Virus record (IMG/VR): IMGVR_UViG_3300020432_000004
Strand: one strand, 5' to 3'
Source of the DNA: a virus
Lineage: Duplodnaviria > Caudoviricetes
DNA length: 64,000 nucleotides
The translations under genes were made by a program, and so were the position numbers. A model generated the notes under the pieces. That model worked only from the letters and a program-made list of their open reading frames with translations. It ran no database searches and was not told where the DNA came from. Position 1 is the first letter of the stretch; each line of letters starts with the position of its first letter. Below are positions 1 to 34,342 of the stretch, one piece after another.

Positions 1-3000
1 GCAGAAGTTATTGGATTTGACTTTGCAGGTAATACAATATATCTTGGTAAAATTGGTAGATCACTAAGAGGTGGTGCTGATTATCATCAGTTTAACTTCT
101 CTAACGCTGCTCAATTAGATACTGCACAGAAGAAATTTGGAGATTCATCATTACTACTTGATGCTGCAACAAATGACTATATTCAAATTCCTGCATCATC
201 TGAATTTACTCGTGGTACAGGTGATTATACTATTGAGTTCCAAGTTCGTTTAGATGCAACATCATTAGTAGATACTAAAACTCTACTTGATATGAGAACA
301 AGTGCTACTGAAGTTGCACTTAGAATTTACTTACAGGCAGCACAAGTTAGAGTTAATGTTAATGGATCAGATATAGCAACATCTGGTGGAAATGCTTTAA
401 ACAATGATGTTTGGTATCATCTTGTAATTCAGAGAACTGGAACTTCTCTTAAGATCTACTCTAATGGAGTTGAGATAGGAACTGGAACTGATAGTAGTAA
501 CTATACACTAGACAGACCTATAAGAATTGGATCTGATTTGTCTGGTCTTAACAGTATGACTGGTCATATTGACGAGTTTAGATATTCTGTTGTTTCACGT
601 TATGCTACAGCACCATTCAATGCTCCTAGTGGAATATTCCAAGGTGATGCTGATACAAAGGTACTATGTCACTTTGATGGTGCTGATGGTCAAACTTCTA
701 CTGAAGATTGGTCTGGTGGTGAATCATTTACTAAGACTGAATACATTAATAATGATGCTATCTTAAAGACACATCAAGCATCTAACGCTGCACCTGCAGG
801 ATTTACTACTAAGAGTCACAGATATCTTAACGCTGCAGATTTAATGTTAATGAACAAGGAATACCTTGCTCAAGAAACAGTTTATATTATGAAAGAAGTA
901 TTCCCTGCTCATAGCGTTAAGGGAAGCGAAGTTGACTGTGAAGATGATGTAAGAGATGTTATTGATTCTCTTGTAGATGACTTACGTAATGGTAGTAACC
1001 ATCATATGTGGAAAGCATCTTCATACTATGTCAATAGAGAAGTAAATCCAATTCAAATTGTAAACGTAGAAGATGATGTCTCTATGACAGTCTTTGTTTA
1101 TAAGATTTTAGATAAACTTGCTAAGTATATTGTTAATAATGTTCCTTGGAGTACTCAAGGTGATCATGGTTTAATTCAGAAATATGATACTTCTATTACA
1201 TTTGATGGTTATACATCTCAGACATTAACTAAGTTTACTCCAACTGCAATCGACTATCATCCATCAATGGGTGACATGGAGATAACAGCTGCAAGTCATG
1301 GACTCGCGGCCCCTAGAACTATTACAGCAACAGACTCAGGATACACTGCTACCACTGGTGTTTTGACGATTCAATCTGTTGGGCACAACTTAGAAACTGG
1401 AGACAGAATTAAGTTTGAACCTAATTCTATTACCATGACTTGTACTTGTGATGGTAATGTAGTATCACAGAGTTATCCTCGAACAGACGATCCAGCAAAC
1501 CAAGGTTGGTTAGAAGTAGCGAAGATTGATAATGATAACTTTAGTGTAAATGTTGGAACATCTCCTACAGTAAATTATACTGCAACATCTGCAGATTATG
1601 ATTCTAATACTGGTTTCTTAACTATGGACATTGGTGACAATGATCTAAGACCAGGTAGTAAGTATACTGTTTCTAACGCTGCATATAATCCTACTACTGG
1701 TGTAATGACAGTCAGTGTTGGTAATGATCAATATGATGTTCATGATGCTGATTATAGTCCTACAAGTGGTGATTTAGAAATCTATACTGGAACACATAAC
1801 TTAAAGACTGGACAAAGAGTTAAGATTGCTAATGATGGTATTACATTTAGATGTTCTCAAGATGACTATGCAACAGATCATGCATATCCAAGAGCAACCG
1901 ATCCTGCACGTGATACAGCATTAGAAGTTACTCATGTAACTGATACATCATTTACTGTAAACGTTGGTAAGTCTCCTATCGTTACTTACGATGTTTCTAA
2001 TGCAACATTCAATCCCAACAATGGTGATATGGAGTTGACTATTGGAAGTCATACTTTGGCACAAGGTACTTCTATTAGAATAGCAACTCAAAGTATTGGA
2101 TTTACATGCACATATGGTGCAGGTGTTCATTACTATCCAAGACCTCTAATTGATGAGCATGTTCCTAGCGATGCAGCATATAATCCAACAACAGGTGTAG
2201 TAACATTTACTGTTGCTCAAGGACATGGAATGAAGAATGGTGATAAGGTTAAGATCCCTGATTATGCACTTTCATTTACATGTGATAAAGATAATAATGT
2301 AACTACTCACAGATATCCTAGACCTTATGATCCTGTTAGTGATAGATGGATTGAAATAAGTAATGTTCAAACAACATCATTTGATGTTCAAGTATTAGAT
2401 ACTGCTCCATCTACAAATACATCTACTCATACTTTTGTAAGTTTTGCAGGTGTAATTCAACAGAAACGTGATAAGTCATTTGAACAGTCTATTGAAATAA
2501 CTGGAACAACTCCAACAACTATTACTATTAATGTTGGTATTTCAAGTAATACAACAACTCATACATATTCAACTTCTAAAGCAGGTGCTGTAATTACTGG
2601 TGGTAATTATAAGCATAAGTTCAGATCTGCACTTGACAATGCTATTACAGTTGAGCATGGATTATATGTTGGTGATAGAGTCATGTTTGATAGAGACTCA
2701 CTAACATTTACATGTCTCGAAGATAGTAATGCTACTGAGCACACATATCCAAGAATTACAGATCCTTACTATAATAAGTGGTTACCTATTTCTAATGTAA
2801 CTCATACATCATTTGATGTTCAAGTACTAAGTTCTACACCTTCTACTAACCAAACTGCTCATACATTTGTTCGTTCTAAAGTTAATGGTTTAACAAGATC
2901 TGGTGAGACACTAAAACTTGCTAAAGATGCATTATCATTTACATGCTCACAAGATAATGATGCTACTGTTCATTCTTATCCTAGAGTTGATGATAGTGTT

Positions 3001-6000
3001 TATAATACTGCTATTCCAATTTGGAGTAATGGTAGCACTAGAATGACTGCTCAAAGTGCAACTTATAACACTGCAGAAGGATTATTAATTATTACTATAT
3101 TAAATCATGGTTTAACAGTTGGAACTGAACTAAGATTAGAGAATAACTCATTAGTCTTTACATGTTCTAAAGATGGTAATAAGACTGAGCATTCTTATCC
3201 TAGACCTAAAGATCCATTTGCTGCTAGATGGTTAAGAATTAAGGCAGTTACAGATCATACATTTACATTATTTGTTGGTGCTGCGAGTCCTACAGGTCAA
3301 TATGCTCATACATTTGTACGAGCTATTAAGGATGGTATTGTAAAACGTGATAACACTGTTACCATAAACGTTGGTGCAACTCCAACTAAGGCGTATACTC
3401 CATCAGCTGCAACTTATAATGCTGGTACTGGTGCTTTAGAATTAAATGTTGGAAATCATAGTTATCCTGCTCCAACACAACATACACCAACAGATGTAGC
3501 ATATAATCCTGTTAGTGGTGTAATGACTTTGACTATTGCAGGTCATAACTTCTCTAATGGTGAGAAAATTAAGATTGATGATAATGGTATTACATTAAGT
3601 TGTCCTTATGGTGGTGCGACTGGATCTGCTGCACAGAAAACTTATCCACGTCCAACTGATCCAGTTAGCAACAAATGGATTCCAATATTCAACGTAACTA
3701 CAGATACTTTTGATGTTCAAGTATTAGATAAGGTTCCATCAACTAACGTTGATACACATACCTTTGTAAGTGCAGTTAATAACTGTGTTAAGAAAGCAAA
3801 TTACACTGTTAAACTTGCTCCTGATTCATTAGTAATGACTTGTGATATGGATAGTAATGCTACTAAGCATCTATATCCTAGATCTAATGTTGCTCAACAT
3901 ACTGCAAGCACAGGAACTACTTACAATCCAGTATCAGGTGTACTTAAAGTTTCTATTCCAACTGAATCATTTACTGCAAGTGCTGCAAACTATAATGTAA
4001 CAACAGGTGATTGTGTATTAACAATATCTCAGAATGCAGGATCTTATAATGTTACTGGTGCAACTTATGCACCTACAACTGGTGTTCTAGTTCTTACAAT
4101 CGGAACTCATAGTTTAACAACTAGCGATAGAATTAAGATTACTCCAGAATCACTTAAGTTTACTTGTGATTACAACAACGATAATAATGAAACAATTCAT
4201 CCTTATCCTAGAGCATCAGGTGCTTATAATTCAACAAATTCAAAAGCAGACTATGCATATGATACATGGTTAGATATTACTGCTGTAAGTCCTAACACTA
4301 TCACTGTTAATGTTAACGGTGGACAGGGTGCTATTACTGATATTAGTAACCATACATTTGTTGGTGCACTTGATGGTGCAGTTCAAGTTGGTCACGGTAT
4401 CGTACCTGGCAACAAAGTTAAACTTGCTCCTAACTCACTAACATTTACTTGCACATTAGATGGTAATACTGCACAAAAATCTTATCCTAGATCAACAGGT
4501 GCTAATACAACAAGTGGTGCTGACTATGCTTATGATAAGTGGCTCAGAGTTATGGCAGTTGGTGAAAATACAATTACTATTAACTTGAATGGTGGTCAAG
4601 GTGCTATCTCAGATACATCAGCACATACATTCGTTTCTGCAACTACAGATGGTATTACTCTTGGACATGGTATGGTTGCAGGTACACCAATCAAGATTAA
4701 AGATAATTCAATTAAGTTTAGATGTGGATTTGATAATTATGAAACTCTACATCCATATCCAAGACCTAGTGATCCTGCAAGTGATAAGTGGTTGTTTATC
4801 AGTAATGTAGATGATAGTAGTTTTGAGGTTAACGTTCTACAAGGAACAACTCCTACAAATACTACAACTCATACCTATGCAGGTTCTGATGATTTAGGTA
4901 TCATTCAAGGAGATCCACTTGTTGCCCAAGCAATTCCTATTGATTCAGTTACAAGTAATACTATTACTATCAATGCTTTAGATGGATATACACCTTCATT
5001 TACACCAAATCATACATTAGACAGTATATCTACAAATCAATTTACACCAACTAATGCTGTATACAACGGTGAAACTGGTGTAATGACAATTACAGTAGCA
5101 ACTACTCTATTCCAACCATCAATGATTGCTTATAATGCAATTACTGGTGAAATGCAAATGACTATAGGTTCTCATAGTCTATCAATAGGACAAGAGATAT
5201 TAATTGCACCTAATTCACTAACATTTACTTGTGATTATAATGGAGATGGAAACACTACAAACAAAACTTATCCTAGAGCATCAGGTGCTGCAACTCCTAG
5301 CGGTGCTGACTTTGCATACAACAATCATTTACAAATTACCGATACAACAGCAACTTCGATCACTGTTAACGTAAATGGTGGTGGAGGATCAATTACTGAT
5401 ACAACAAGTCATCAGTTTGTTTCTGCTACAGCAGGTGCAATCAGTGTAGGTCATGGTATACAAAATGGTGAAAAAATTAAGATTGCTGATGGTGGAATAA
5501 CATTCACTTGCACTCATGATAGCAATGCTACAAATCATCCTTATCCTCGTGCAACTGACCCTGCTAGTGGTAGATGGTTAGACGTTATGAACGTCACCAA
5601 TACAACATTCGATGTTCAAGTACTTGACGAAATTCCTTCAACAAATACTACAGCACATACATTTGTTTCTGCTACAACTAATGCTATTACAAGAGCAATA
5701 GTTTCAACTGGTGGTAATTACAAACATAAGTTTGTATCTGGTCTTACAAATGGTGTTAGAACAGGTGGAGATTACACTCATACATTTGTTTCTGCAACTA
5801 CAAACGGTATTCATGTTGCAGGTGACTGTGTATACATTGATGATAACTCACTAAGATTTACTTGTTCTCAAGATAATCATCTAACACAACATGATTATCC
5901 AAGATCAACTGATCCTGCAAGTCATCAGGTGATGGAAGTTAAGACTGTAGATAATGATAGATTTGTTATTAACGTTGGTAAGTCACCACAAGACAAACGT

Positions 6001-9000
6001 TATGATCACTTATTTGTTAGTGGAGATGCTAATTCTATTACTAAGTCTAAGTATTTCGTTACAAATTGTTCTGATGTTTATACAACTACAAACAACTTAA
6101 TTTCTATACTAACAGATACAATAGAACAGGCTGCTTTAGCATCTCCTGTAGATCATCTTGCAACTGTTACTGATCTAAATCCAGTACAAGAATTTATTGG
6201 TGGTAGAGTTCATTCATATCTTGAAGTTCCATTTAAGATCACTTATGAAGATGATGCTAGTGAATTAATATACACAGATAGAATTGATGTATTCAGTCGT
6301 TACAGATTCCGTGATGCTGCTGAATTAATTCGTCAGAATCGTGGTGCTATTGTAGATAAAGCATCATTTGATATGTTGCAGCGTTATCCAGATCTTAATC
6401 AGGATATGCCTAGAAACCAGAATGGTGCATCCACAGATGGAACTGAACGTTGTAAGACTGACTTAGGATTAGTTGTTGATGGTCTTGCTAATGATGTAGA
6501 AAATGGTGGTAATAAAAACGTTGTTACTGCTGCAGGATTCTATATCGGTGCTAATAATGAAATACAACATATTAGATTACAATTACCACAATCTATCTAC
6601 GTTCACGAACGTTTAATATACTACTTAAAGCAAGCAATAGATGGAACTCTAACAACTGATAATACAGAAAATCTCATTGTTGGAGACTGGGGTATTACAA
6701 ATAATGACTATACAACATCGTACGATGTATATGATGCTGCATATACTCCTTCAACTGGTGATCTAACATTAACTCTTGCTTCAAATACTGGATCTTATAG
6801 TGTTAGTGGTGCTGTTTATAATCCAACATCAGGTGATTTAACACTTACAATCGGAACTCATACATTAACAACTACTGATAAAGTTGGAATTGCTGAGGAG
6901 TCATTAGTCTTTACTTGTGATTACAATGGAAATGGTAATCAAACTCAAAAGAGATATCCTAGATCATTTGGTGCTAACACTACAAATGGTGCTGACTATG
7001 CATATAATCAGTTCCTTGATATCACAGCAGTAAATCAATCTGGTGGAACAATCACTGTTAACGTCAATGGTGGTCAAGGTGCAATTACAGATACAACAAC
7101 TCATAACTTTGTTGTTACTCCATCTGCCACAAATGCAGTTACTGTTGGTCATGGATTTGGTGTAGGTGATAGTTTACAGATCAATAACGAAGCATTAACA
7201 TTTACATGTTCAATGGATGGAAATGTTTCTAATAAAACATATCCTCGTGCAACTGATCCTGCATATGGTAAGGCACTTACAATTAATTCTAGAACTGCAA
7301 CAACTGTAACTGTAAATGTAGGACCTAGTCCGTTAGTTAGGTACACACCAACAATGGCAACATACACTGCCTCAACTGGTGTAATGGTTCTTACTATTGG
7401 TAACCATAACTTACAAGTTGGTCAACCAATTAAGATTAGTGGAGGTGCATTGAAGTTTACATGCTCAATGGATCAAAATGAATCTATTAAATCATATCCA
7501 AGAACTACAGATCCATTCTACGACAAACCTATTGATATTACTGCAACTACAGCAGATACTATTCAGATAAACGTTGGTCAAAGTCCTATTGTAATGCACA
7601 ATGTTTCTAATGCTACTTACGATCCTAATACAGGTGTAATGGTATTAACAATCGGTATAAACCACGGATTAACTGCTAATACTAGCATTAAACTTGCTAC
7701 TGAATCATTAGTCTTTACTTGCACATTAGATGGTAATACAGTTGAGAAATCTTATCCTCGTGCTACAACTGCTAACACAGGAACAGGTGCTGACTATGCA
7801 TATGATACTGCAATCAATATTGATTCTGTAGATCAAAATGCAGGAACAATTACTATCAATGTAAATGGTGGACAAGGTGCTATTTCTGATACATCAGCAC
7901 ATACATTTGTTTCTGCTAATTCTGGTGCTGTAAGATCTGGTGGAGATTATGTTCATACATTCCATTCAGCAGATACTGAATCTGTAATAGCAGGTGGAGA
8001 TTATACTCATGTATGGGCAGGTGGTACTGCTACAGATGCAGTCTTTACTGTTGGTGATTGTGCAGATGTTAAGACTAACATTGAATCATTAATAGAAACT
8101 GTTAATGATATTATTGCACCTACTGGAAAGGATTATGATGTTGCAGGTAATAGACTTTACTTTAACAGAGAACTTATTGCAGAAGATGTAACATCTAATA
8201 TGTTAACTGGATTTACATATCAAGCAGGTCCTACAACATACTTTGCATTCCAATTCGGAGGATCTAATTTAGAAGCAACCGAGTTCCAAGCTGATGTAGA
8301 GTTCCTTGTTAAGTCATTAATATCCGATTTACAGACTGGTGGTAATAGTAGTTCTATCAGAGCACTTGAAGAAACATATCTCAACGCAGATGGAACACTT
8401 CATAGAATTGAAGATATGGTTATGGCAACTGTCTATGGTATGGAAGTACTTAAGGAAGTTGGTCGTGAAGTAATTAGAAATAATGTATATAACTCATTTG
8501 AGAGTCAACCATTTGGTGCATATTCAACACCATCAGGTAAAGCTGCTTATAGAGATGGTGAAGAAACAGTTGATATTGATCAGGTTGTTGGAGACTGGAA
8601 TAATCTTCTTGATCATGTGATTGAGTTCTTCTCACCTGGCAAGAAGATTGCTAGAAGTGGTATGAAGCAAATTCTTTATAATGCAAACTACTATAAGAAT
8701 GAATTAAACAATCTTGTTAATACTCAGTTTGGAACTGGATCATGGGTATACAATGATTTTGTTGATCAGTTACTTGGAAATATGATCCAAGACTCTATTA
8801 CAACTGACGTAGATCATGTTATAGATGCTTACAGACTTACTGTTGACAATGTGAGTGGTGAGTTTAAGGTTGATGAGGTTGTTACAGCATCAGGTGGTGG
8901 ATATGCTAAGATTCTTGAATGGGATAGTAAAGATAGACATCTTTATATTGGATCATTCTTAGAAGGTACAATCTCTGGTGGTGAAACAATTACAGGTCAA

Positions 9001-17506: not shown

Positions 17507-19039
17507 ATGGCAGCTCTATTAACTGATCAATTTAGAATTTTTTCAGCACAAAAATTTATTAAGGCTCTTGAAGGTCCCGTTGCAACTCAAAGTGATGATG
17601 ATGCAGGGGCTACGAGGGACAGGTTATATCTTTTCATAGGTAGACCACAAAGTTGGGATAATGAAAACTCACCACCACAGGCAGTGGATTCATTTGCCGA
17701 ATTTTCTGGTGCATATGATGATATGGTTTCAATGAAGCGTGTGCTGGCTTCCGATACTGTGCAGGTTGTTCGTAGAATTGACTGGGTTTCCCCAGAACAA
17801 ACTACTGGTGGATTAGGTTTTACCTATGACATGTATCGTCACGACTATTCTCCAAGTAAAACTGCTGCCTCTGGTGCTACTAAATTATATGATTCTGATT
17901 TTTACGTTGTAAACTCTCAGTATCAAGTATATAAGTGCATCTATAATGGAACTTCACCCTCAGATCCAAATGGAAAACCTTCTACAGTGGAACCTACAGG
18001 TACTTCTACTTCAATTATCACTACTGGTGATTCTTATCGTTGGAAATACATGTATACCATCCCAGTAGCATCGGTTCTTAAGTTCTTCTCGAACGATTAT
18101 ATGCCTGTATTCACAAATGCTGCTGTAAAAACAAACGCAGTTGCAGGTGAAATTGATACTGTTGTTATCAATGCTGCAGGTTCTGGTTATAACAATGGAA
18201 CTTATGATAACGTTGCTATTAATGGTGATGGAACTGGTGGTCGTGTTTCACTAGTTGTAGATGGTGGTAAAATTATTTCTGCTACTGTTACATCTGGAGG
18301 AACAGGATATACCTTTGGTAAAATTTCTGTTGATAACGTTACTGGTATTGGAACAGGAACTGGTGCTCAAGTGGATGTCATAATTCCACCACCAGGCGGT
18401 CACGGTGCTGATTCTGTTGTAGAACTTGGTGCTTTCCGAGTTATGATTAATGCTAAACTTTCATACGATGAAGGTGCAGGTGACTTCCCAGTTGACAACG
18501 ACTATCGTCGTATTGGTTTAATAACAAACCCTTTAAAATTTGGAACCGAGGAATTAATTTCAGACTTGACTGTATCTGCTACTAAGGCAGTTATATTCTC
18601 ACCTACATTCCAAGGTAACTACGTTCCTGATGAAATTATTACACAAACAAGAGTTGTTGGAGGATCTAACGTTACTGCTCGTGCTCGTGTTATTTCATGG
18701 AATGCAACTACAAAACTATTAAAGTACTATCAGAATGCTGTAGATGGTATCTTCCCAGAAGTTACAGGAACACAGAATGAATTTGATGGTTCAAACGTGA
18801 TTAATGGTGCTACATCTGGTGCTGCAGGGCAACCCGATGTTAACTTCCCCGCCATCCCAAACTCTTCTTCTAGAACAATTAACAATACTGAGTATGACTT
18901 AGGTATGAAGTTTAACAATGGTTATGCTAAACCCGAAGTTTCCTCAAGTAGCGGTGACGTTGTTTACATAGATAATAGAAGATCCATCAGTCGTGCAAAC
19001 GACCAAGTAGAAGATATTAAAATCGTAATCGAGTTCTAA
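17507..19039 (+). CDS. g8: Baseplate wedge subunit gp8
   Basis: MAALLTDQFRI, LYLFIGRPQSW, VYKCIYNG, YRWKYMYTI and C-terminal EDIKIVIEF are typical of cyanophage gp8. Confidence 0.92.
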   Translation: MAALLTDQFRIFSAQKFIKALEGPVATQSDDDAGATRDRLYLFIGRPQSWDNENSPPQAVDSFAEFSGAYDDMVSMKRVLASDTVQVVRRIDWVSPEQTTGGLGFTYDMYRHDYSPSKTAASGATKLYDSDFYVVNSQYQVYKCIYNGTSPSDPNGKPSTVEPTGTSTSIITTGDSYRWKYMYTIPVASVLKFFSNDYMPVFTNAAVKTNAVAGEIDTVVINAAGSGYNNGTYDNVAINGDGTGGRVSLVVDGGKIISATVTSGGTGYTFGKISVDNVTGIGTGTGAQVDVIIPPPGGHGADSVVELGAFRVMINAKLSYDEGAGDFPVDNDYRRIGLITNPLKFGTEELISDLTVSATKAVIFSPTFQGNYVPDEIITQTRVVGGSNVTARARVISWNATTKLLKYYQNAVDGIFPEVTGTQNEFDGSNVINGATSGAAGQPDVNFPAIPNSSSRTINNTEYDLGMKFNNGYAKPEVSSSSGDVVYIDNRRSISRANDQVEDIKIVIEF

Positions 19040-26827: not shown

Positions 26828-29800
26828 ATGGCAAATAGAATACAATTAAGAAGGGGTGGTGCTCAGGAATGGGCAAACGCAAACCCTACTCTTGCTCAAG
26901 GTGAATTGGGTATTGAGTTAGATACTGGTCGATTTAAGATAGGTGATGGTGTATCAGCATGGAATACCTTGCGATATGAAAGACCTGTTGAATCTATATC
27001 TAACACTGCAAACACTCTTGTACAAAGGGATGCTGATGGTAATTTTGCTGCAGGTGTTATAACTGCAACGTTGATTGGTAACGCTTCTACTGCTGCAAGA
27101 CTTTCATCAACTAGACAGATAACTTTATCTGACGACCTAAGTGCTACAGGAACATTTGACGGATCACAAAACTTAAACCTTGCTGCAGAACTTTCTTTAG
27201 TTTCAACACTCCCTCATTATGATGGAACATCTTCTTCATCTGGAACTTATAACAAAGTAACTGTAGACGCAAAAGGTAGAATTACTGCTGCACAAGACTT
27301 TACTACAAGTAACAATGGAACCCTTGCTGATTACGGTCTAGATGGGACTGTAGAGGGTGCTTCTGCTCAACCTTATGATTTAGACCTAGTTGCTGTTGCA
27401 GGTCTTACAACGACTGGTATTATCGCTAGAACTAGTGGTGGTGCTATGTCAACCAGAACCGTTACTGGAACTGCAGGAAAGATACAAATTAATAATGGTG
27501 CAGGTGTAAACGGTAACCCAACAATTAATTTAATTACTACAACTGTAGTACCTGGTGATTATAATACAGAGTCTTTGACATCTGTAAGTGCTGTAGGAAG
27601 TAATAGCGAACCATTTGGAACTGAGACTGTAAACGCAGTTAAGTTTACTGTTGACGAAGATGGTAGATTACAGTCATCTACAAACGTTCCTATTGCAACT
27701 GCTACAGAAGGTAGTAAGTATGGTGCATTTAATGGTGCTACCAATTATGTAAGATATAATATAATTGAAACAGGAGGTAAGGTATATCAAGCAATTCAAG
27801 ATATTAGTTCTGGAGGAGTTGCACCAACTCATGTAGATAGTTCTGATGCTAATGGTTGGAGATATCTCGCTGCTGCTGCAGTAGAACAAAAAGGATTAGC
27901 ATCATTTGCTCAAGAAGATTTTGATGTAGATTCAAATGGTCATGTTACTATTGCTCCTGCAGGTGTAGATAATACACAGATGCAAAATAATAGAATAGGT
28001 TTTGCAGATGGTAATACAGTAGAGAATTTTGAATTAGATCAAGAATTAACTGCAACAACTGGTTATAGAGGATTTAACTATCTTAATTATGTTAAGGTAA
28101 ACAATACTTCTGGTAGTCTATTATTTGGTGCAAACAATACAGGAGATAGTGGAAACGGAGAAGTTGATATTAATGTAAGAACTGTATTCAGTGATCCTGA
28201 TTTCATGTTCGATGGTGCAGGTACACAACAGATTGATAAAACTGGTGATGGTGATTTCAACATAGAACTCACACAAAACACTGCAGTAGATAGAAACCTA
28301 ACTGTATCTTCTACTAACGCAGGTTCTGGAACTAGCACATTAACATTATCTGCAGAAGATGTAGTAGATATTGATGCCACTGCTGCAACTGGAAAGGTAC
28401 ATATAGAAACAATGAGATTCCAAGCAGACCATATTGGTGCTGTTGGAGACATTTTAATTGACCCTAATGACGACAGAGATGTTAGTGGTCTAGTAACAAT
28501 TAGAGGAAACTTACAAGTAGATGGAACGACTACAACAGTTAATTCAACAGTCACAACGTTGGATGATCCAATCATTACTCTTGGCGGTGACACTGCTCCT
28601 GCTAGTGATGATGGTAAGGATAGGGGAGTTGAGTTCAGATATTATGACTCTCAAGCAAGACTTGGATTCTTCGGTTACGACGATTCGTATGCAGATCTCG
28701 GAGGACACTCAGGGGGATTCCGTTTTCTATATGATGCCACAAATATTGGAGAGGTATTTACAGGAACAGATGCAGGGGTCATTGCAGGAAATCTAAAACT
28801 TACAACTAATACTAATTCAACATCTAATACTACAGGAGATTTGGTAGTAGCAGGTGGTGTAGGTATAGGTGATGATGTTAATATTGGTGGAACAGTTGAT
28901 ATTGATACTAACTTAAGAACTCGTGGAACTACTAGATTTGATGACGAGGTAGTTATTCAAGGTGCTTCTAAGAACTTCATTATGAAGAACGGAAGTGGAA
29001 CTGCAAAAATTACTGCAGGATCTACAACTGGTAACATTACTATGGAAGGCATCCTTGCTGTTACAGGCAATGTAGATGTAAACACTGACAAGTTTAATAT
29101 AACAGCATCCTCTGGTAATACTGCTATTGCAGGTACTCTAGTAGTAAGTGATGCAACTACTATAAAGGCAGACAATAAGTTCTTCAAGATTCAAACTGCT
29201 GCAGCTGCAGATAAATTTACAGTTGATACAGACAACGGTAATACAGTTATATCTGGTGAGTTGAATGTTAACTCAGCTGTTGATCTTGATACAACATTAA
29301 ACGTAGATGGTGGTGCTACATTCCAAGACAATGTAACTATCAACGCTGATAACAAGATGTTTAAGATCCAGACAAATGGATCTGTTGATAAGTTTACAGT
29401 AGATAGTGATAATGGTAATACAGTTATTGCAGGTCAGTTAAATGTAAACTCAGCTGTTGATTTAGATAGCACTTTAAATGTTGATAACGCTTCTACATTC
29501 CAACACAATGTAACTATCAATGCTGACAATAAGATGTTCAAGATACAGAACAACTCAAACAGCGATAAGTTTACAGTAGATACTGACAACGGAAATACAA
29601 CTATACAAGGAACCGTTGATATTGTTGGTAACACAACTCTCACAAATAACTTTACAGTTAATGGTTCTCAAACAACTATTGGTAATGCTAATAGCGATGT
29701 TCTAACTGTTAATGCAGACGCAACATTTACAGATGATCTTACAGTAAATGCAACCGTTGACTTTGATTCAACTCTAAATGTTGATGGTCAAGCAACCTTC

Positions 29801-32800
29801 CAAGACAATATCATCTTGAACGCTGACAATAAGATGTTCAAGATACAGACTAATGGTTCTGTAGATAAATTTACAGTTGATTCTGATAATGGTAATACAG
29901 ATATACAAGGAACATTAATAGTACAGGGTCAAACTAGTATTATTGATTCACTTGTAATCAATGCTTCTAATGAGAACTTCTTAATTCAGAATGGTTCTGG
30001 TGTTAATAAGTTTACAGTTGATACAGACAATGGTAATACTAACATTGTTGGAACAATAACTGTTGGAAGTGCATCACAAATTAATTCTACTCTTGGTGTT
30101 ACTGGAGTTACAAGTCTAACAAATGCTGCAGACCAAACAATTACAGGAACATATGGTGCAGATGGTGGTGTAAGAATTAGCGGTGGTGTTGGAATTACTA
30201 AGAGACTTGCTGTAGGATCTGATGCAAGAGTATATGGTAATACCACATTATCAGGAACTGTAGATATTGATAATAATACTGATGTATCTGGTAAGTTTAA
30301 TATTAGTAATACTCAAGATGCCACAAGTTTTGCAGATAATTCTGTAGCATTTACTAATGATGGTGGTGCAAGAATTACTAAGAACACTTACATTGGTGGT
30401 GATCTTGTTGTTTATGACAACACTAACACAAGAGCTGCATTTACTGTTACTAATTTAACAGGAGATGGCGAGTTCCATAATGATCTTACAGTTGGAGGTA
30501 ACTTAATAGTCAATGGAGCAACAACTACTGTCAACAGCACGGTCACAACTCTCGATGACCCTGTTATTACTTTGGGTGGTGACACAGCACCAGTCTCTAA
30601 CGATGCTAAGGATCGTGGTGTTGAGTTCCGTTACTACGACGGCTCTGCTAAAGTTGGGTACTTCGGATTAGATAGATCATCCTTAGAATTTGCATTCTTA
30701 ACAGACGCTACTAATAATTCAGAGATATTTACAGGAACTGACGGTGCATTAAGAGTTGGTTCTATTCATGTTACAGGTGCAGGACAATCTGTTGACATTG
30801 ATTCAAATGCAAACATAGATGGAACTCTAACTGTAGATGGTCAAATTACATCTCAGGTATCATCAGGACCTGCTCTTGTTATTCCAACAACTGATAAGAT
30901 TAATAATCTAAACGCAGACCTATTGGATAGCATGACAACTGCGACTGCAAACACTGCATCTACAGTTGTTAATCGTGACTCATCTGGTGACTTTGCTGCT
31001 AATATTATCACTGTTGCATCTGGAACTGGATCAGGTGCAGGTATTCAAGGTAACGCAATTACTGCTGACGAATGGAAGACTGCTAGAACATTAACAGTTA
31101 ATGGTGTTGTAAACGGAAGTATAAGCATTAATGGTGGTTCAGATATTACACTTACAACAACATTTGATGATCCTGATATAACTGGATTATCTGGAATGAC
31201 TGGTACTGGTTATGTTGTAAGAACTGCTGCTAATACTTTTGCACAAAGAACCTTACAAGTTACAGGAAGCTCAGGTATAACACTTACCAATGCTGATGGT
31301 GTTCAAGGAGACACAACTATTAACGTTGCTTCTACACCTAACAATGCATCTGACAACTTAGTCTTACGTGATGGATCTGGTAACTTCTCTGCAGGAGAAA
31401 TAACTGCAGATCTAAGTGGTAACTTAATTGCTAATTCCAGTACAGCAAAAACAATAATTCCTGTTACTGATTCTGCTTGGAATCTAGGATCTAACTCTGC
31501 TAGATGGTTACACATTTATGGTGATAATATTACTGCAACTGATGCAACTATTACTAATATTAGTGGTGATTTAACTGGTAACTTAGTTGCATCATCTTCC
31601 ACAACTAAAACTATAGTTCCTTCACAGGCTTCTCAATGGTCTATAGGACATACTACTAACAGATACTCATACGTTTATTCAGATAACTTTATTGGAACTA
31701 CAGCACAAGTAGATGTAAATGGTGATCTAACTGGTAATTTAGTTGCATCTTCTAGTACTGCAAAAACAGTAGTTCCTGCTGCTAATTCTACTTGGAATCT
31801 AGGAGCAACTGCAAACAGATGGGCATATGTGTATGCAGATACTTTCACAGGAACTACTGGAAATATTGATCAGGTAAATGGTAATCTAAGTGGTAACTTA
31901 GTTGCATCAAATTCCTCAACTAAAAATATAATTCCTGCTACTGATAGCACTTGGAATATAGGATCTTCCACAAACAGATATGCATACATTTATGGAGATA
32001 GCCTTGTTGCTACTTCTGCAACTATTGATCAAGTAAATGGTGATCTAAGTGGTAACTTAGTTGGTAATTCTTCCACAACTAAAACTGTAGTTCCTGTTAC
32101 TGATTCTACTTACAACCTAGGATCAACTTCAAACAGATATGCATATGCTTATGCAGATAGCTTTGTTGGTGATACTGCAAATATTGGTCAAGTAAATGGT
32201 GATCTAGGTGGTAATTTAACTAATAACTCATCTAGTGCAAAAACTATAGTTCCTGCTGCTACTTCTACTTGGAATCTAGGATCAACTACAAACAGATGGG
32301 CATATACTTACTCAAATAGTTTTGTTGGTACTTCCGCAACTATTGATAGTATTAATGGTGATCTAGGTGGTAACTTAACTAATAACTCATCTACTGCCAA
32401 GACATTTGTTCCTGTTCAAGACAACACTTGGAATCTAGGATCTACCACAAATAAATGGGCATATGGATATATCAATACAGTAAATGGAGTTACAGGAACA
32501 TTCACTACATTGTCTGGTGATCTAGGTGGTAACTTAACTAATAATTCATCTACTGCAAAAACTATAGTTCCTGTCACAGGTTCTACTTGGAATCTAGGAT
32601 CTGGCACAAATAGATGGGCATATCTATATGTTGATACTATCAATGTTGCAAATGCTATTAGTGCTAACGTAACTGGTGACCTAACAGGTAATGCTGATAC
32701 TGCAACTGCCTTACAGACTGCAAGAACTATCGGTGGCACAACCTTTGACGGAACTGCTGATATTACTCCTGCTACTGCAACACAGGCAACAAACCTTAAC

Positions 32801-34342
32801 AACCATGATACTGATAGTTTATCAGAAGGTGCTTCAAATCTATACTACACAGAAACAAGAGTACAAAACAAACTTGATAATGCGTTTGCACAGTTACAAG
32901 CAATGTTGAATAATCTTGCTACTACAACTACATTGAAACTTAATCTATCAGGAGATCCAACACCTGGTGCTGTTGTATCTCTTGGATCTATTACAGCAAG
33001 TGGTCTTGGAGGATTTACTGCAGGAACTGACGTTGCAACTTCTGGATCAGCAACTGGAACTGGATTAACAGTTGATACAACTGTAGTTGATGGTGCAATT
33101 ACTGCTGTTGCCTTAAACCAAGGTGGAACAGATTACTTAATCGGAGATACTTTAACAATCACAAATGCTAATGCAGGTGGTGTTGCTACATTGAACCTTG
33201 GATCATTAGTAACTGGAACTGGTGGATTCAGTAATGCAACTGCTGTTGCAACAACTGGTGGATCAGGAACAGGATTAACTCTTGATACTACAGTAGATGC
33301 ATCTGGAGCACTCACAAACCTTACAGTGAACGCTGCAGGAACTGGTTATGCAAATGGTGAAACAATTACACTTACAAATCCTAATGCAGGTGGAGTAGCT
33401 ACAACAGATACTCTTGTCGTTGGAACTGGTTATATTGACGGAACTGGACTTGCAACGACTGGTGGTGGGGGAAGCGGTTTGACAGTTGATGTTACTACAT
33501 CAGGTGGTCAAGTAACTGGAGTTACAGTGAACGCTGCAGGAACAGGATATGCTGTTGATGACACCATTACCATAACCAACCCTAATGGTGGTGGAGTACA
33601 AACACTAGGATCTATTGCTACTGCAGGAACAGGATATGCTGATGGAACTGGTATCGCAGTTGTTGGAGGAGGTGGAACTGGATTAACAGTTGATCTCACT
33701 ACATCAGCAGGAGTAGTTACTGGTGTTGCAATCAATGCAGATGGATCTGGTTATGCAGCATCTGACGTTGTTACTATTGTAAATGCTAATGGATCAGGTG
33801 CTAAGACTCTTGGTTCTATTACAACAGCAGGAACTGGATACTCAGCAGGAACTGGAGTTGCAACAACTTCAGCTGGATCAGGAACTGGTCTAACAGTTGA
33901 TACTACAGTTGATGAAAATGGAGCAATAACTGCTGTTACAATCAATGATGATGGATCTGGTTATGCAGCATCTGAAGTTATAACTATTGCAGGGGGTAGT
34001 GGAACTGCTCAATTTACTGTGTCAGAAATACATGGTAATGGTTGTACAATTCCTATATCTGCTGTATTTGGCAATGATGCAACCTTTGATGTTGCAAGTG
34101 TATTTGTTGATGGTTCTATCAACATTGCTACTGTATTCACAGATGCAACATTCTCACTCGCTGACATCACAGCGATGGAAGTCGGTGCAACTCTAACAGG
34201 AGCAACTAGTGGAACTGTTGGAACTATTACTGCTATGGATAGCAGTTCTGTTACTGTTGATAATGTAGATGGATTCTTCAAAGTAGGAGAAACCGTTGGT
34301 GCTAATGATGTTACTAACTTGACTATTAATTCATTCGGATAA
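26828..34342 (+). CDS. Long tail/neck fibre protein (2504 aa)
   Basis: N-terminal RIQLRRG...NPTLAQGELGIELDTGRFKIGDG fibre anchor motif; several G/T/N-rich repeat blocks; upstream of g13. Confidence 0.85.
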   Translation: MANRIQLRRGGAQEWANANPTLAQGELGIELDTGRFKIGDGVSAWNTLRYERPVESISNTANTLVQRDADGNFAAGVITATLIGNASTAARLSSTRQITLSDDLSATGTFDGSQNLNLAAELSLVSTLPHYDGTSSSSGTYNKVTVDAKGRITAAQDFTTSNNGTLADYGLDGTVEGASAQPYDLDLVAVAGLTTTGIIARTSGGAMSTRTVTGTAGKIQINNGAGVNGNPTINLITTTVVPGDYNTESLTSVSAVGSNSEPFGTETVNAVKFTVDEDGRLQSSTNVPIATATEGSKYGAFNGATNYVRYNIIETGGKVYQAIQDISSGGVAPTHVDSSDANGWRYLAAAAVEQKGLASFAQEDFDVDSNGHVTIAPAGVDNTQMQNNRIGFADGNTVENFELDQELTATTGYRGFNYLNYVKVNNTSGSLLFGANNTGDSGNGEVDINVRTVFSDPDFMFDGAGTQQIDKTGDGDFNIELTQNTAVDRNLTVSSTNAGSGTSTLTLSAEDVVDIDATAATGKVHIETMRFQADHIGAVGDILIDPNDDRDVSGLVTIRGNLQVDGTTTTVNSTVTTLDDPIITLGGDTAPASDDGKDRGVEFRYYDSQARLGFFGYDDSYADLGGHSGGFRFLYDATNIGEVFTGTDAGVIAGNLKLTTNTNSTSNTTGDLVVAGGVGIGDDVNIGGTVDIDTNLRTRGTTRFDDEVVIQGASKNFIMKNGSGTAKITAGSTTGNITMEGILAVTGNVDVNTDKFNITASSGNTAIAGTLVVSDATTIKADNKFFKIQTAAAADKFTVDTDNGNTVISGELNVNSAVDLDTTLNVDGGATFQDNVTINADNKMFKIQTNGSVDKFTVDSDNGNTVIAGQLNVNSAVDLDSTLNVDNASTFQHNVTINADNKMFKIQNNSNSDKFTVDTDNGNTTIQGTVDIVGNTTLTNNFTVNGSQTTIGNANSDVLTVNADATFTDDLTVNATVDFDSTLNVDGQATFQDNIILNADNKMFKIQTNGSVDKFTVDSDNGNTDIQGTLIVQGQTSIIDSLVINASNENFLIQNGSGVNKFTVDTDNGNTNIVGTITVGSASQINSTLGVTGVTSLTNAADQTITGTYGADGGVRISGGVGITKRLAVGSDARVYGNTTLSGTVDIDNNTDVSGKFNISNTQDATSFADNSVAFTNDGGARITKNTYIGGDLVVYDNTNTRAAFTVTNLTGDGEFHNDLTVGGNLIVNGATTTVNSTVTTLDDPVITLGGDTAPVSNDAKDRGVEFRYYDGSAKVGYFGLDRSSLEFAFLTDATNNSEIFTGTDGALRVGSIHVTGAGQSVDIDSNANIDGTLTVDGQITSQVSSGPALVIPTTDKINNLNADLLDSMTTATANTASTVVNRDSSGDFAANIITVASGTGSGAGIQGNAITADEWKTARTLTVNGVVNGSISINGGSDITLTTTFDDPDITGLSGMTGTGYVVRTAANTFAQRTLQVTGSSGITLTNADGVQGDTTINVASTPNNASDNLVLRDGSGNFSAGEITADLSGNLIANSSTAKTIIPVTDSAWNLGSNSARWLHIYGDNITATDATITNISGDLTGNLVASSSTTKTIVPSQASQWSIGHTTNRYSYVYSDNFIGTTAQVDVNGDLTGNLVASSSTAKTVVPAANSTWNLGATANRWAYVYADTFTGTTGNIDQVNGNLSGNLVASNSSTKNIIPATDSTWNIGSSTNRYAYIYGDSLVATSATIDQVNGDLSGNLVGNSSTTKTVVPVTDSTYNLGSTSNRYAYAYADSFVGDTANIGQVNGDLGGNLTNNSSSAKTIVPAATSTWNLGSTTNRWAYTYSNSFVGTSATIDSINGDLGGNLTNNSSTAKTFVPVQDNTWNLGSTTNKWAYGYINTVNGVTGTFTTLSGDLGGNLTNNSSTAKTIVPVTGSTWNLGSGTNRWAYLYVDTINVANAISANVTGDLTGNADTATALQTARTIGGTTFDGTADITPATATQATNLNNHDTDSLSEGASNLYYTETRVQNKLDNAFAQLQAMLNNLATTTTLKLNLSGDPTPGAVVSLGSITASGLGGFTAGTDVATSGSATGTGLTVDTTVVDGAITAVALNQGGTDYLIGDTLTITNANAGGVATLNLGSLVTGTGGFSNATAVATTGGSGTGLTLDTTVDASGALTNLTVNAAGTGYANGETITLTNPNAGGVATTDTLVVGTGYIDGTGLATTGGGGSGLTVDVTTSGGQVTGVTVNAAGTGYAVDDTITITNPNGGGVQTLGSIATAGTGYADGTGIAVVGGGGTGLTVDLTTSAGVVTGVAINADGSGYAASDVVTIVNANGSGAKTLGSITTAGTGYSAGTGVATTSAGSGTGLTVDTTVDENGAITAVTINDDGSGYAASEVITIAGGSGTAQFTVSEIHGNGCTIPISAVFGNDATFDVASVFVDGSINIATVFTDATFSLADITAMEVGATLTGATSGTVGTITAMDSSSVTVDNVDGFFKVGETVGANDVTNLTINSFG
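29160..30055 (+). repeat. ~5 copies of the NADNKMFKIQ...DKFTVD(T/S)DNGNT repeat
   Basis: Visible in both translation and DNA (gctgacaataagatgttcaagatacag recurs). Confidence 0.85.
31406..32675 (+). repeat. 8 tandem ~53-aa fibre repeats (GDL.GNL...SS.AKTIVP....WNLGS..NRWAY.Y)
   Basis: Eight copies counted at a ~159-nt period. Confidence 0.9.
32960..34170 (+). repeat. 5 nested GTGLTVD...GTGY repeats followed by 5 stacked closing strands
   Basis: Five ~70-aa units, then TAQFTVSEIH / GCTIPISAVF / DATFDVASVF / DGSINIATVF / DATFSLADIT. Confidence 0.8.

What the first reader, a model, noticed from the sequence alone, without database searches (positions are those of the whole stretch)
32920..34342. 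Independent 5-deep Matryoshka nest at the fibre C-terminus
Seen: five ~70-aa units (..GTGLTVD..G.(I/V)T.V..N..G.GY....ITI.N.N) each stop short of a final strand. Five short strands of similar pattern then follow in a row at ~34000-34170. The block itself interrupts another domain (TLKLNLSGDP ... MEVGATLTGATSGTVG...FKVGETVG). Inference: the chain runs out through five domains and returns, completing each one, which forms a hairpin-like stalk. A different domain family thus uses the same nesting strategy, suggesting a general way this phage extends virion appendages.
Basis: partly seen in the sequence, partly recalled or inferred. Interest (0 to 1): 0.72.

Follow-up and report, generated by a model that had tools for sequence, protein, structure and literature searches.

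The report
Five nested barrels in cyanophage fibre
The last 470 residues of a giant fibre protein of a marine T4-like cyanophage most likely form five small beta-barrels plugged one inside the next, each finished by one short strand that the chain supplies on its way back; related phages carry 1 to 8 such levels, which makes this an unusually regular and deep case of domain-in-domain building.

Summary
ORF 26828-34342 (+), 2504 aa, is the cyanomyovirus 'YadA-domain structural protein/fiber', just upstream of the gp13/gp14/gp15 homologues. Its C-terminus has five ~69-aa units (HMM E 1e-24 to 1e-27), then five 11-12-aa strands, then a conserved 55-aa end.

The nesting inference is supported, by prediction only. 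In an AlphaFold2 model (pLDDT ~90 over units and strands), single ~70-80-residue barrel domains from the PDB align over model ranges 298-373, 227-387, 160-397, 89-409 and 17-420. That is unit 5+strand 1, 4+2, 3+3, 2+4 and 1+5, which is mirror order.

Units equal strands in 119 of 120 orthologues (n = 2-8), and in S-RIM2 (1), Syn19 (2), P-RSM4 (4) and P-SSM4 (6). The one exception is a mosaic of a 4-unit and a 3-unit lineage.

The barrel resembles T4 sheath gp18 domain I (Z 5.4, 24% identity) and EF-Tu domain 2. Not verified: that the block interrupts a further domain (pLDDT <50), and the rod shape, since no coordinates were available.

Nested insertion is known (RNA polymerase Si3, gp18), but I found no description of such a homotypic, count-variable nest. 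This scan has already noted the orthologous nest on other DNA (e1-5790640, e1-5935248).

The parts
26828..34342 (+). Gene of the 2504-aa fibre / 'YadA-domain structural protein' (T4-like cyanophage gene cluster 402); N-terminal Mtd_N domain
   Evidence: ORF list and translation. Pfam Mtd_N E 1.6e-13. phrog_697 full length, E 0. Orthologues are annotated as fiber / structural protein in P-SSM4, P-RSM3, Syn19 and others. The neighbours are baseplate wedge genes upstream and gp13/gp14/gp15 homologues downstream.
32840..32911 (+). Helix before the nest (residues 2005-2028), predicted trimeric coiled coil
   Evidence: The homologous helix of the 1-unit orthologue P0139 (716-750) is the interface of a predicted homotrimer. 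ipSAE is 0.49 against a best control of 0.00. The mark was reached by 20 of 30 solved one-chain pairs and 1 of 23 single chains. The runs agree in at least 68% of contacts and partner pLDDT is at least 89. My own alignment and three copies were used, unlike the calibration.
32912..32968 (+). 19-aa N-terminal linker (residues 2029-2047), almost invariant; proposed first half of an enclosing domain
   Evidence: 13 of its residues are invariant in 52 orthologues. Only 1 of 19 columns varies among close relatives. pLDDT is <50 in the model, so its structural role is not shown.
32969..33178 (+). Unit 1 (outermost barrel, strands a-e)
   Evidence: HMM E 6.8e-25. Model strands E21-29, 38-42, 53-59, 62-70 and 80-83. 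Barrel domains align over model range 17..420, that is together with strand s5.
33179..33388 (+). Unit 2 (strands a-e)
   Evidence: HMM E 7.3e-25. Barrel domains align over model ranges 89..409 and 94..406, that is together with s4.
33389..33592 (+). Unit 3 (strands a-e)
   Evidence: HMM E 3.6e-24. Barrel domains align over model ranges 160..396 and 160..397, that is together with s3.
33593..33796 (+). Unit 4 (strands a-e)
   Evidence: HMM E 6.2e-26. A barrel domain aligns over model range 227..387, that is together with s2.
33797..34000 (+). Unit 5 (innermost barrel, strands a-e), contiguous with its closing strand
   Evidence: HMM E 1.4e-27. T4 gp18 domain I aligns over model range 298..373 (Z 5.4, rmsd 2.4 A, 68 aligned, 24% identity).
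34001..34036 (+). Closing strand s1 (sixth strand of unit 5)
   Evidence: Model strand E367-373, pLDDT ~90. VIA range 298..373.
34037..34072 (+). Closing strand s2 (sixth strand of unit 4)
   Evidence: Model strand E379-385. VIA range 227..387.
34073..34108 (+). Closing strand s3 (sixth strand of unit 3)
   Evidence: Model strand E390-397. VIA ranges 160..396/397.
34109..34141 (+). Closing strand s4 (sixth strand of unit 2)
   Evidence: Model strand E401-408. VIA ranges 89..409 and 94..406.
34142..34174 (+). Closing strand s5 (sixth strand of unit 1)
   Evidence: Model strand E412-419. VIA ranges 17..420 and 19..418.
34175..34339 (+). Conserved 55-aa C-terminal segment (residues 2450-2504); fold and role not resolved
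   Evidence: About 30 residues are invariant in 52 orthologues. pLDDT is <50 in the monomer model. There is no profile similarity to the unit. A few of its residues touch between chains in the trimer model of the 1-unit orthologue.

Best explanation
The C-terminal 470 residues form a homotypic five-level nest of small six-stranded beta-barrels.

Architecture:
- Each ~69-aa unit supplies strands a-e of one barrel.
- The next unit is inserted in the loop before strand f.
- After the innermost barrel is completed by the adjoining strand, the chain returns and supplies the missing sixth strand of units 4, 3, 2 and 1 in turn.
- Neighbouring barrels are therefore joined by two chain crossings, one outward and one returning. 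The two ends of the whole block lie side by side, next to the conserved 19-aa linker and the 55-aa C-terminal segment.

Assembly: the block follows a helix that is predicted to form a trimeric coiled coil, so a fibre would carry three such arms, one per chain.

Inferred, not shown:
- The nest is an arm built in whole-barrel steps. Its length is set by the number of levels (1-8 in related phages).
- It projects the innermost barrel away from the fibre end, for contact with the host surface or with another part of the virion.
- Folding must go from the inside out, because the outermost barrel cannot close until the whole block has been made.
- A change of level number needs matched gain or loss of one unit and one strand.
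For: Complete domain: the barrel occurs with all six strands contiguous in singletons (P0226, P0237), in the innermost unit here, and in the 1-unit orthologues P0139 and S-RIM2. Units 1-4 therefore lack a strand that the family normally has.

Model of the window: pLDDT is ~90 for model residues 20-420, pTM 0.60, and four of five models agree in mean pLDDT at 82.6-83.7.

Structural alignment against 48,161 PDB chains: one-domain barrels with 67-82 aligned residues span model ranges 298..373, 227..387, 160..396/397, 89..409 and 17..420. The ends are unit k and strand 6-k.

Second model: in an 8-unit orthologue the outer four levels give 17/19..667/669, 89..657/658, 160..645-648 and 229/230..634/635.

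Counts: units equal strands in 119/120 orthologues with n = 2-8. The strand-region length rises by 11.2 aa per unit, r = 0.98. Named isolates give 1/1, 2/2, 4/4 and 6/6.

Type mapping: unit types and strand types correspond nearly one-to-one in mirror order. Mutual information is 0.85 bit, against 0.56 for same order and 0.11 +/- 0.04 for shuffles; 0 of 2000 shuffles reach it.

The one exception: P0066 (4 units, 3 strands) is a mosaic, 93% identical to a 4-unit protein in front and 99% identical to 3-unit proteins behind.

Family habit: the same barrel is nested at another split point in unrelated secreted bacterial proteins.

Trimer: ipSAE 0.49 against a best control of 0.00. The mark was reached by 20 of 30 solved one-chain pairs and 1 of 23 single chains. 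The runs agree in at least 68% of contacts and pLDDT is at least 89. The interface is the helix. My own alignment and three copies were used, unlike the calibration.
Against: - No coordinates or contact map could be read. The pairing is inferred from the first and last aligned residues of structural alignments with modest Z (3.1-5.5) on predicted models.
- AlphaFold2 may favour a nested solution because it has seen nested barrels (Si3, sheath proteins).
- The inner four to five levels of the 8-unit model are poorly predicted (pLDDT 40-75).
- The mirror mapping of types can also arise from history alone, if the arrays grow at their common junction.
- The enclosing segments are not modelled (pLDDT <50).
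- No experiment bears on shape, rigidity or function.
- Variation among close relatives is not concentrated in the innermost unit, which gives no support to a receptor-binding tip.
Confidence: 0.8

Rival explanations
1. Beads on a string plus a separate sheet. The five units are self-sufficient five-stranded domains in tandem, and the five short strands form their own antiparallel meander or solenoid at the end of the fibre.
For: The short strands are linked by 3-4-residue Gly/Asn turns, as in a beta-meander. No coordinates were available to exclude strand-strand pairing directly.
Against: - One-domain PDB barrels align across unit k plus strand 6-k in two models.
- The family's complete domain has six contiguous strands where it stands alone.
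- This model gives no reason for the equality of unit and strand counts in 119/120 orthologues and four isolates.
Confidence: 0.06
2. Inter-chain completion. In the trimeric fibre the returning strands complete the barrels of a neighbouring chain, giving a domain-swapped, interlocked bundle instead of three separate arms.
For: Phage fibres are commonly intertwined trimers (general knowledge). The region follows a predicted trimeric coiled coil. The models of the nest were monomers, so they cannot exclude swapping.
Against: In the trimer model of the 1-unit orthologue the confident interface is the helix plus a few residues of the C-terminal segment. The barrel and its closing strand are not named among the contacts. 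The monomer model closes all five barrels with high confidence on its own.
Confidence: 0.08
3. No defined nest. The Gly/Thr/Ser-rich repeats are a flexible or only partly ordered region, and the model is an artefact of repeat-rich alignments.
For: The composition is Gly/Thr/Ser-rich. The inner levels of the 8-unit model have low confidence.
Against: - The alternating hydrophobic pattern is strongly conserved.
- pLDDT is ~90 in the 5-unit model.
- There is structural and weak sequence likeness to solved barrels: gp18 domain I at Z 5.4 and 24% identity, and Pfam PF22639 at E 0.059 here and 6.3e-5 in P0087.
- The counts are strictly balanced.
Confidence: 0.03

Closest known systems
Si3 insertion of cyanobacterial RNA polymerase beta' (RpoC2); PDB 8EMB, 8GZH
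   Same: Small beta-barrel-type domains of one kind are inserted into each other. Several domains are therefore built from distant parts of the chain, and the polypeptide folds back over itself into a long arm (PMC10895346). A 2026 survey of 2.7 million domains names it as the extreme case, with six nesting levels (PMC13114784).
   Different: - Si3 is irregular. Four of its eight SBHMs are continuous, the connections vary, and the nest branches.
- Here every level is split at the same loop (before the last strand), and all returns are single 11-12-aa strands in one uninterrupted array.
- Here the number of levels varies from 1 to 8 between orthologues.
- Fold likeness to Si3 is not established: only Foldseek rows at E ~0.6.
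- Si3 sits in an enzyme's trigger loop. This nest sits at the end of a virion fibre.
T4 tail sheath protein gp18 (PDB 3FO8, 3FOA) and related sheaths ('Russian doll' organisation; PMC3004832, PMC6088184)
   Same: [quoted passage not shown] It is the best structural match of the unit: Z 5.4, rmsd 2.4 A, 68 aligned, 24% identity. The Klebsiella phage KP1 sheath gives Z 5.1 and 27% identity.
   Different: - The gp18 nest is heterotypic (four different folds), is four levels deep and is fixed. Here a single fold is nested in itself.
- gp18 domain I has an extra alpha-helix, and the units show none.
- The Pfam model PF22639 scores below its cut-off, 13.8 against 27 bits.
- A profile of the complete unit finds no sheath protein in the PDB by sequence.
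Domain 2 / C-terminal barrels of translational GTPases (EF-Tu, Hbs1, eRF3, SelB, eIF2-gamma) and of aminomethyltransferase-type folate enzymes
   Same: These six-stranded barrels of about 75-80 residues superpose on unit+strand pairs of every level (Z 3.0-4.2, rmsd 3.1-3.8 A).
   Different: The Z scores are low and sequence identity is 4-16%. This shows a common barrel arrangement, not kinship or function.
Other nests reported by this scan in T4-like cyanophage virion proteins (e1-5750329 and e1-5750330 in this genome; e1-5790640 and e1-5935248, orthologues of this nest in other genomes)
   Same: The building principle is the same. The two orthologue notes describe 8-deep and 6-deep versions of this very C-terminal nest.
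   Different: These are unchecked AI notes, not literature. The nests at 1225-8055 of this window use another sequence family, since my unit HMM does not hit them, and they are branched, whereas this one is strictly linear.

Membership tests
Recursive (nested) domain insertion, A1-B1-C-B2-A2 type | Domains are discontinuous in sequence: an N-terminal part and a C-terminal part of one compact domain are separated by a complete inserted domain | tested here: met
   This is prediction-level evidence. One-domain PDB barrels with 67-82 aligned residues span model ranges 17..420, 89..409, 160..397 and 227..387. In the 8-unit model they span 19..667, 89..658, 160..646 and 230..635.
Recursive (nested) domain insertion, A1-B1-C-B2-A2 type | Closing parts follow in the reverse order of opening parts, and their numbers are equal | tested here: met
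   The range ends follow mirror order. Units equal strands in 119/120 orthologues and four isolates. Mutual information is 0.85 bit for mirror order against 0.56 for same order.
Recursive (nested) domain insertion, A1-B1-C-B2-A2 type | Direct strand-to-strand contacts between each closing strand and its own barrel | not testable with these tools
   The structure tool returns no coordinates or contact map.
Gp18_dom_I (Pfam PF22639), outer barrel of contractile sheath proteins | Sequence match above Pfam's gathering score | tested here: not met
   13.8 bits against a cut-off of 27, E 0.059. The related nozzle protein P0087 scores 23.3 bits. A PDB profile search finds no sheath protein.
Gp18_dom_I (Pfam PF22639), outer barrel of contractile sheath proteins | Six-stranded beta-barrel superposable on gp18 residues 98-188 | tested here: inconclusive
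   Z 5.4, rmsd 2.4 A, 68 aligned, 24% identity. These are the top three rows, about 1 Z unit above the rest, and they are again on top in the second model at Z 5.5. A Z under 8 may reflect only a common arrangement.
Gp18_dom_I (Pfam PF22639), outer barrel of contractile sheath proteins | An alpha-helix packed on the barrel (PMC3004832) | tested here: not met
   DSSP of the model shows no helix anywhere in residues 1-476.
Sandwich-barrel hybrid motif (SBHM) of RNA polymerase Si3 | SBHM fold | tested here: inconclusive
   There are only weak Foldseek rows, 8emb_B and 8gzh_Z at E 0.6 with TM below 0.1. Neither is among the 50 listed VIA rows, which does not exclude the fold.
Cyanomyovirus 'YadA-domain structural protein / fiber' (phrog_697; T4-like gene cluster 402) | Full-length sequence match, N-terminal Mtd_N domain, and position directly upstream of gp13-gp14-gp15 | tested here: met
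   phrog_697 E 0 over 8 stretches. Mtd_N E 1.6e-13. The downstream genes match head-tail adaptor, head closure and sheath stabiliser families. The order is the same in S-RIM2, Syn19, P-SSM4 and P-RSM4.

The most novel reading that the evidence does not exclude
This fibre family carries the most regular self-nested protein architecture so far noticed. One barrel fold is always split before its last strand and is stacked 1 to 8 levels deep in natural orthologues. That would exceed the six-level record of RNA polymerase Si3 (nine levels if the conserved end segments form an enclosing domain). The barrels would have to fold from the inside out. The level number would evolve only through matched unit and strand indels, with unbalanced recombinants such as P0066 as rare intermediates or dead ends. 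The same barrel nests at a second split point in secreted bacterial proteins, so self-nesting would be an intrinsic habit of this fold.
Probability: 0.6. Interest if true: 0.78.

Novelty: new variant of a known kind. Interest (0 to 1): 0.66.

Why it matters
**Extent of nesting.** Domain-in-domain insertion is usually one level deep. A 2026 survey of 2.7 million domains gives six levels, in cyanobacterial RNA polymerase, as the extreme (PMC13114784).

**A natural series.** Here an abundant group of ocean viruses offers the same barrel nested 1, 2, 3, 4, 5, 6, 7 or 8 times with one fixed rule.
- This makes questions on folding with very long-range strand completion directly testable. The last strand of the outer barrel lies 400-650 residues after the rest.
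- The same series can be used to test the stiffness of double-linked domain chains, and how repeat numbers that must stay balanced evolve.

**Phage biology.** The level number is a variable feature of a conserved virion fibre of Prochlorococcus and Synechococcus phages, so it may bear on adsorption.

**Protein design.** The arrangement suggests a way to build arms of set length whose two ends stay together.

Tried and rejected
- PDB sequence searches found nothing useful, either with the profile of the whole C-terminus or of the complete innermost barrel (two chance rows at E about 1).
- Foldseek against the PDB gave no match at E <= 0.001.
- hhalign of the C-terminal 55 aa against the unit profile gave probability 0.5%. 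The idea that the enclosing segments are a sixth, diverged copy of the barrel is therefore not supported.
- The 8-unit orthologue model is confident only for the outer three units. VIA ranges resolve the outer four levels. The inner four levels are unresolved, so an 8-deep nest rests on counts alone.
- Variation among 13 close relatives is not concentrated in the innermost (tip) unit. Units 1 and 4 vary most, so a hypervariable receptor tip is not supported.
- Tandem Repeats Finder found no DNA tandem repeat. The units are old duplicates.
- Literature searches for an earlier description in cyanophage fibres found none. The library lacks most subscription journals.
It was rewritten to derive the codes from the files and run.
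Full report
**Where it is.** The window is part of a T4-like cyanomyovirus. The C-terminal 513 aa of the ORF match 244 phage records, all of them Synechococcus or Prochlorococcus phages. The finding lies at the end of ORF 26828-34342 (+), 2504 aa.
- The ORF has an Mtd_N domain at its N-terminus and matches phrog_697 over its full length.
- Orthologues are annotated 'fiber' or 'YadA domain-containing structural protein'.
- Upstream lie baseplate wedge genes and a 2409-aa structural protein. Directly downstream lie homologues of gp13, gp14 and gp15.
- The order is the same in S-RIM2, Syn19, P-SSM4 and P-RSM4.

**The observation.**
- Residues 2053-2396 hold five units of 68-70 aa that align in register. 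A unit HMM scores them at E 1e-24 to 1e-27.
- At the DNA level the units are 60-81% alike with a period of 201-213 nt, and there is no recent tandem array.
- Five segments of 11-12 aa with one shared alternating pattern follow at residues 2392-2449, window 34001-34174.
- Before the block lies a 19-aa stretch that is almost invariant in 52 orthologues. After it lies a conserved 55-aa end.

**What a complete domain looks like.** Where the domain stands alone it has six strands in a row, the sixth following the fifth after a short Gly-rich loop. This holds in P0226 and P0237, in the 1-unit orthologues P0139 and S-RIM2, and in the innermost unit here. Units 1-4 stop after strand five. The block as a whole holds 5 x 5 + 5 = 30 strands, which is five six-stranded domains.

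**Counts in relatives.** I counted units with the HMM, and strands by stepping back from the conserved end, in 120 orthologues from the 5.8-billion-protein collection.
- The pairs of counts were 2/2 (1 protein), 3/3 (42), 4/4 (24, one of them read by eye), 5/5 (28), 6/6 (18), 7/7 (1) and 8/8 (5).
- The strand region grows by 11.2 aa per unit, r = 0.98.
- Named isolates give 1/1 (S-RIM2), 2/2 (Syn19), 4/4 (P-RSM4) and 6/6 (P-SSM4).
- The only mismatch is P0066, with 4 units and 3 strands. It is a mosaic: its front is 93% identical to a 4-unit protein and its last 160 aa are 99% identical to 3-unit proteins. It is therefore either a recombinant or an assembly chimera.

**Structure.** I folded window 32912-34339 (476 aa) with an alignment of 52 orthologue tails.
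- Mean pLDDT is 83.7 and pTM 0.60. pLDDT is ~90 over residues 20-420, which includes all five short strands, and below 50 for residues 1-15 and 422-476.
- The tool gives no coordinates, so I read the topology from structural alignments against 48,161 PDB chains. Single barrel domains with 67-82 aligned residues cover these model ranges:

| Model range | Pair | Example match |
|---|---|---|
| 298..373 | unit 5 + s1 | T4 gp18 domain I, Z 5.4, rmsd 2.4 A, 24% identity |
| 227..387 | unit 4 + s2 | aEF1-alpha (3wy9_A), Z 3.3 |
| 160..396/397 | unit 3 + s3 | SelB (5lzb_z), Z 3.8; eIF2-gamma (1s0u_A), Z 3.6 |
| 89..409, 94..406 | unit 2 + s4 | eRF3 (3j5y_B), Z 3.3; Sap S-layer (8rwf_A), Z 3.1 |
| 17..420 | unit 1 + s5 | EF-Tu-domain-2-type barrels, Z about 4 |

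- Each range starts at the first strand of a unit and ends at the model strand (E367-373, 379-385, 390-397, 401-408, 412-419) that the mirror rule predicts.
- A compact 75-residue barrel cannot span 400 residues unless it is built from the two ends of that range.
- A second model, of an 8-unit orthologue (725 aa), is poorer, with mean pLDDT 66. It repeats the rule for the outer four levels: 19..667, 89..658, 160..646 and 230..635. Its inner four levels are unresolved.

**Sequence evidence for the order.** Unit types and strand types correspond almost one-to-one in mirror order over 20 distinct architectures.
- The unit types were classed by the first strand and loop. The strand types were classed by the strand end.
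- Mutual information is 0.85 bit in mirror order, 0.56 bit in same order, and 0.11 +/- 0.04 for shuffles.
- This would also follow if both arrays simply grow at their common junction, so it is supporting evidence only.

**Assembly state.** Three copies of the 1-unit orthologue P0139 (residues 716-902: helix, linker, one barrel, end segment) were folded with controls.
- ipSAE is 0.49 and the best control 0.00.
- The mark was reached by 20 of 30 proteins solved as one-chain pairs and by 1 of 23 solved as single chains.
- The runs agree in at least 68% of contacts, and pLDDT is at least 89.
- My own alignment and three copies were used, unlike the calibration. Coiled coils may also pass from likeness to solved ones.
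- The confident interface is the helix (716-750) plus a few residues of the end segment. The barrel is not part of it.
- I therefore read the fibre end as a trimeric coiled coil from which each chain sends out its own arm.

**What it is like.** The fold is a small six-stranded barrel.
- By structure it is closest to the protruding domain I of contractile sheath proteins, and more loosely to EF-Tu domain 2. Pfam's Gp18_dom_I stays below its cut-off, and the units lack the helix of gp18 domain I (PMC3004832).
- The building principle is that of gp18 (I in II in III in IV; PMC3004832, PMC6088184) and, closer still, of the Si3 insertion of cyanobacterial RNA polymerase. In Si3, barrels of one kind are inserted into each other (PMC10895346), and it is listed as the six-level extreme in a 2026 survey (PMC13114784).
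- This nest differs in being strictly regular. There is one fold and one split point, all return segments are single strands in one array, there is no branching, and the level number varies from 1 to 8 among orthologues.
- I found no description of it in the searchable literature.
- BFVD holds predicted models of relatives, all of them uncharacterised virion proteins.

**Wider occurrence.** A scan of 1.84 billion representatives finds the unit in 586 clusters.
- These include baseplate wedge proteins and a podovirus nozzle protein.
- They also include secreted bacterial proteins with PA and type-IX-secretion sorting domains. There the HMM hits run as several first halves, one whole unit, then the same number of second halves. 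That is the same barrel nested at the hairpin after strand three.
- Self-nesting thus looks like a habit of this fold.

**What is not shown.**
- That the 19-aa linker and the 55-aa end form one interrupted domain. pLDDT is <50, there is no likeness to the unit, and no 0-unit orthologue was seen.
- The shape and stiffness of the arm.
- Its function. Variation among close relatives is not focused on the tip unit. The innermost unit does come in two alternative types in different lineages, which hints at module exchange.
- My reading of function, an arm of stepwise length for surface contact, is inference from the position in a fibre and from the exposed position of such barrels in other virion proteins.

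**Earlier notes of this scan.** After my main results were in, I looked these up. The orthologous nest was reported in two other genomes as 8-deep and 6-deep (e1-5790640, e1-5935248). Other, branched nests of another sequence family were reported in this same genome (e1-5750329, e1-5750330). These are AI notes and I did not use them as evidence.

**Verdict.** The nesting inference is supported at the level of prediction plus comparative counts. It is a new variant of a known kind.

Noticed in passing
P0137, P0146, P0147, P0149, P0234 (proteins; not in the window): Secreted bacterial proteins with a PA domain and a type-IX-secretion sorting domain carry the same barrel nested at a different split point. 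They show three or four first halves (strands a-c), one whole unit, then the same number of second halves (strands d-f).
   Followed up: partly
P0066 (orthologue, metagenome contig): This is the only orthologue with unequal counts (4 units, 3 closing strands). It is a mosaic of a 4-unit lineage (93% identity in front) and a 3-unit lineage (99% identity behind), so it is either a natural recombinant or an assembly chimera.
   Followed up: partly
Orthologues P0030, P0063, P0084, P0098 and others; P-SSM4 and P-RSM4 (L083, L084): The innermost unit exists in two alternative types. One is the regular type. The other is longer, with an extra ~30-aa segment and a Gly-rich linker before its closing strand. 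The two types are distributed across lineages with different level numbers, which suggests exchange of the tip module.
   Followed up: no
P0087 (1809 aa; not in the window): A podovirus nozzle protein (Pfam Phage_nozzle, E 2e-150) has two to three copies of the same barrel in an N-terminal extension.
   Followed up: no
window 17507-19036 (+): The baseplate wedge protein (phrog_438) gives weak, partial, overlapping hits to the unit HMM at aa 207-292 (E 1e-4 to 1e-3). It may hold diverged copies of the barrel.
   Followed up: no
window 31478-32600 (+), residues ~1540-1930 of the same protein: Eight to nine tandem repeats of about 53 aa, each with a Trp-Asn-Leu-Gly-type motif, lie upstream of the nest. 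These look plainly tandem, not nested.
   Followed up: no
window 28616 and 30608 (+), residues 597 and 1261 of the same protein: An 11-residue motif (KDRGVEFRYYD) occurs twice, 664 residues apart, inside two longer similar segments. Another first-stage note in this scan covers this duplication.
   Followed up: no
window 29210-29900 (+), residues ~795-1030: Four copies of a ~59-aa repeat with a conserved Asp-Lys-Phe-Thr-Val-Asp motif sit in the shaft of the fibre.
   Followed up: no
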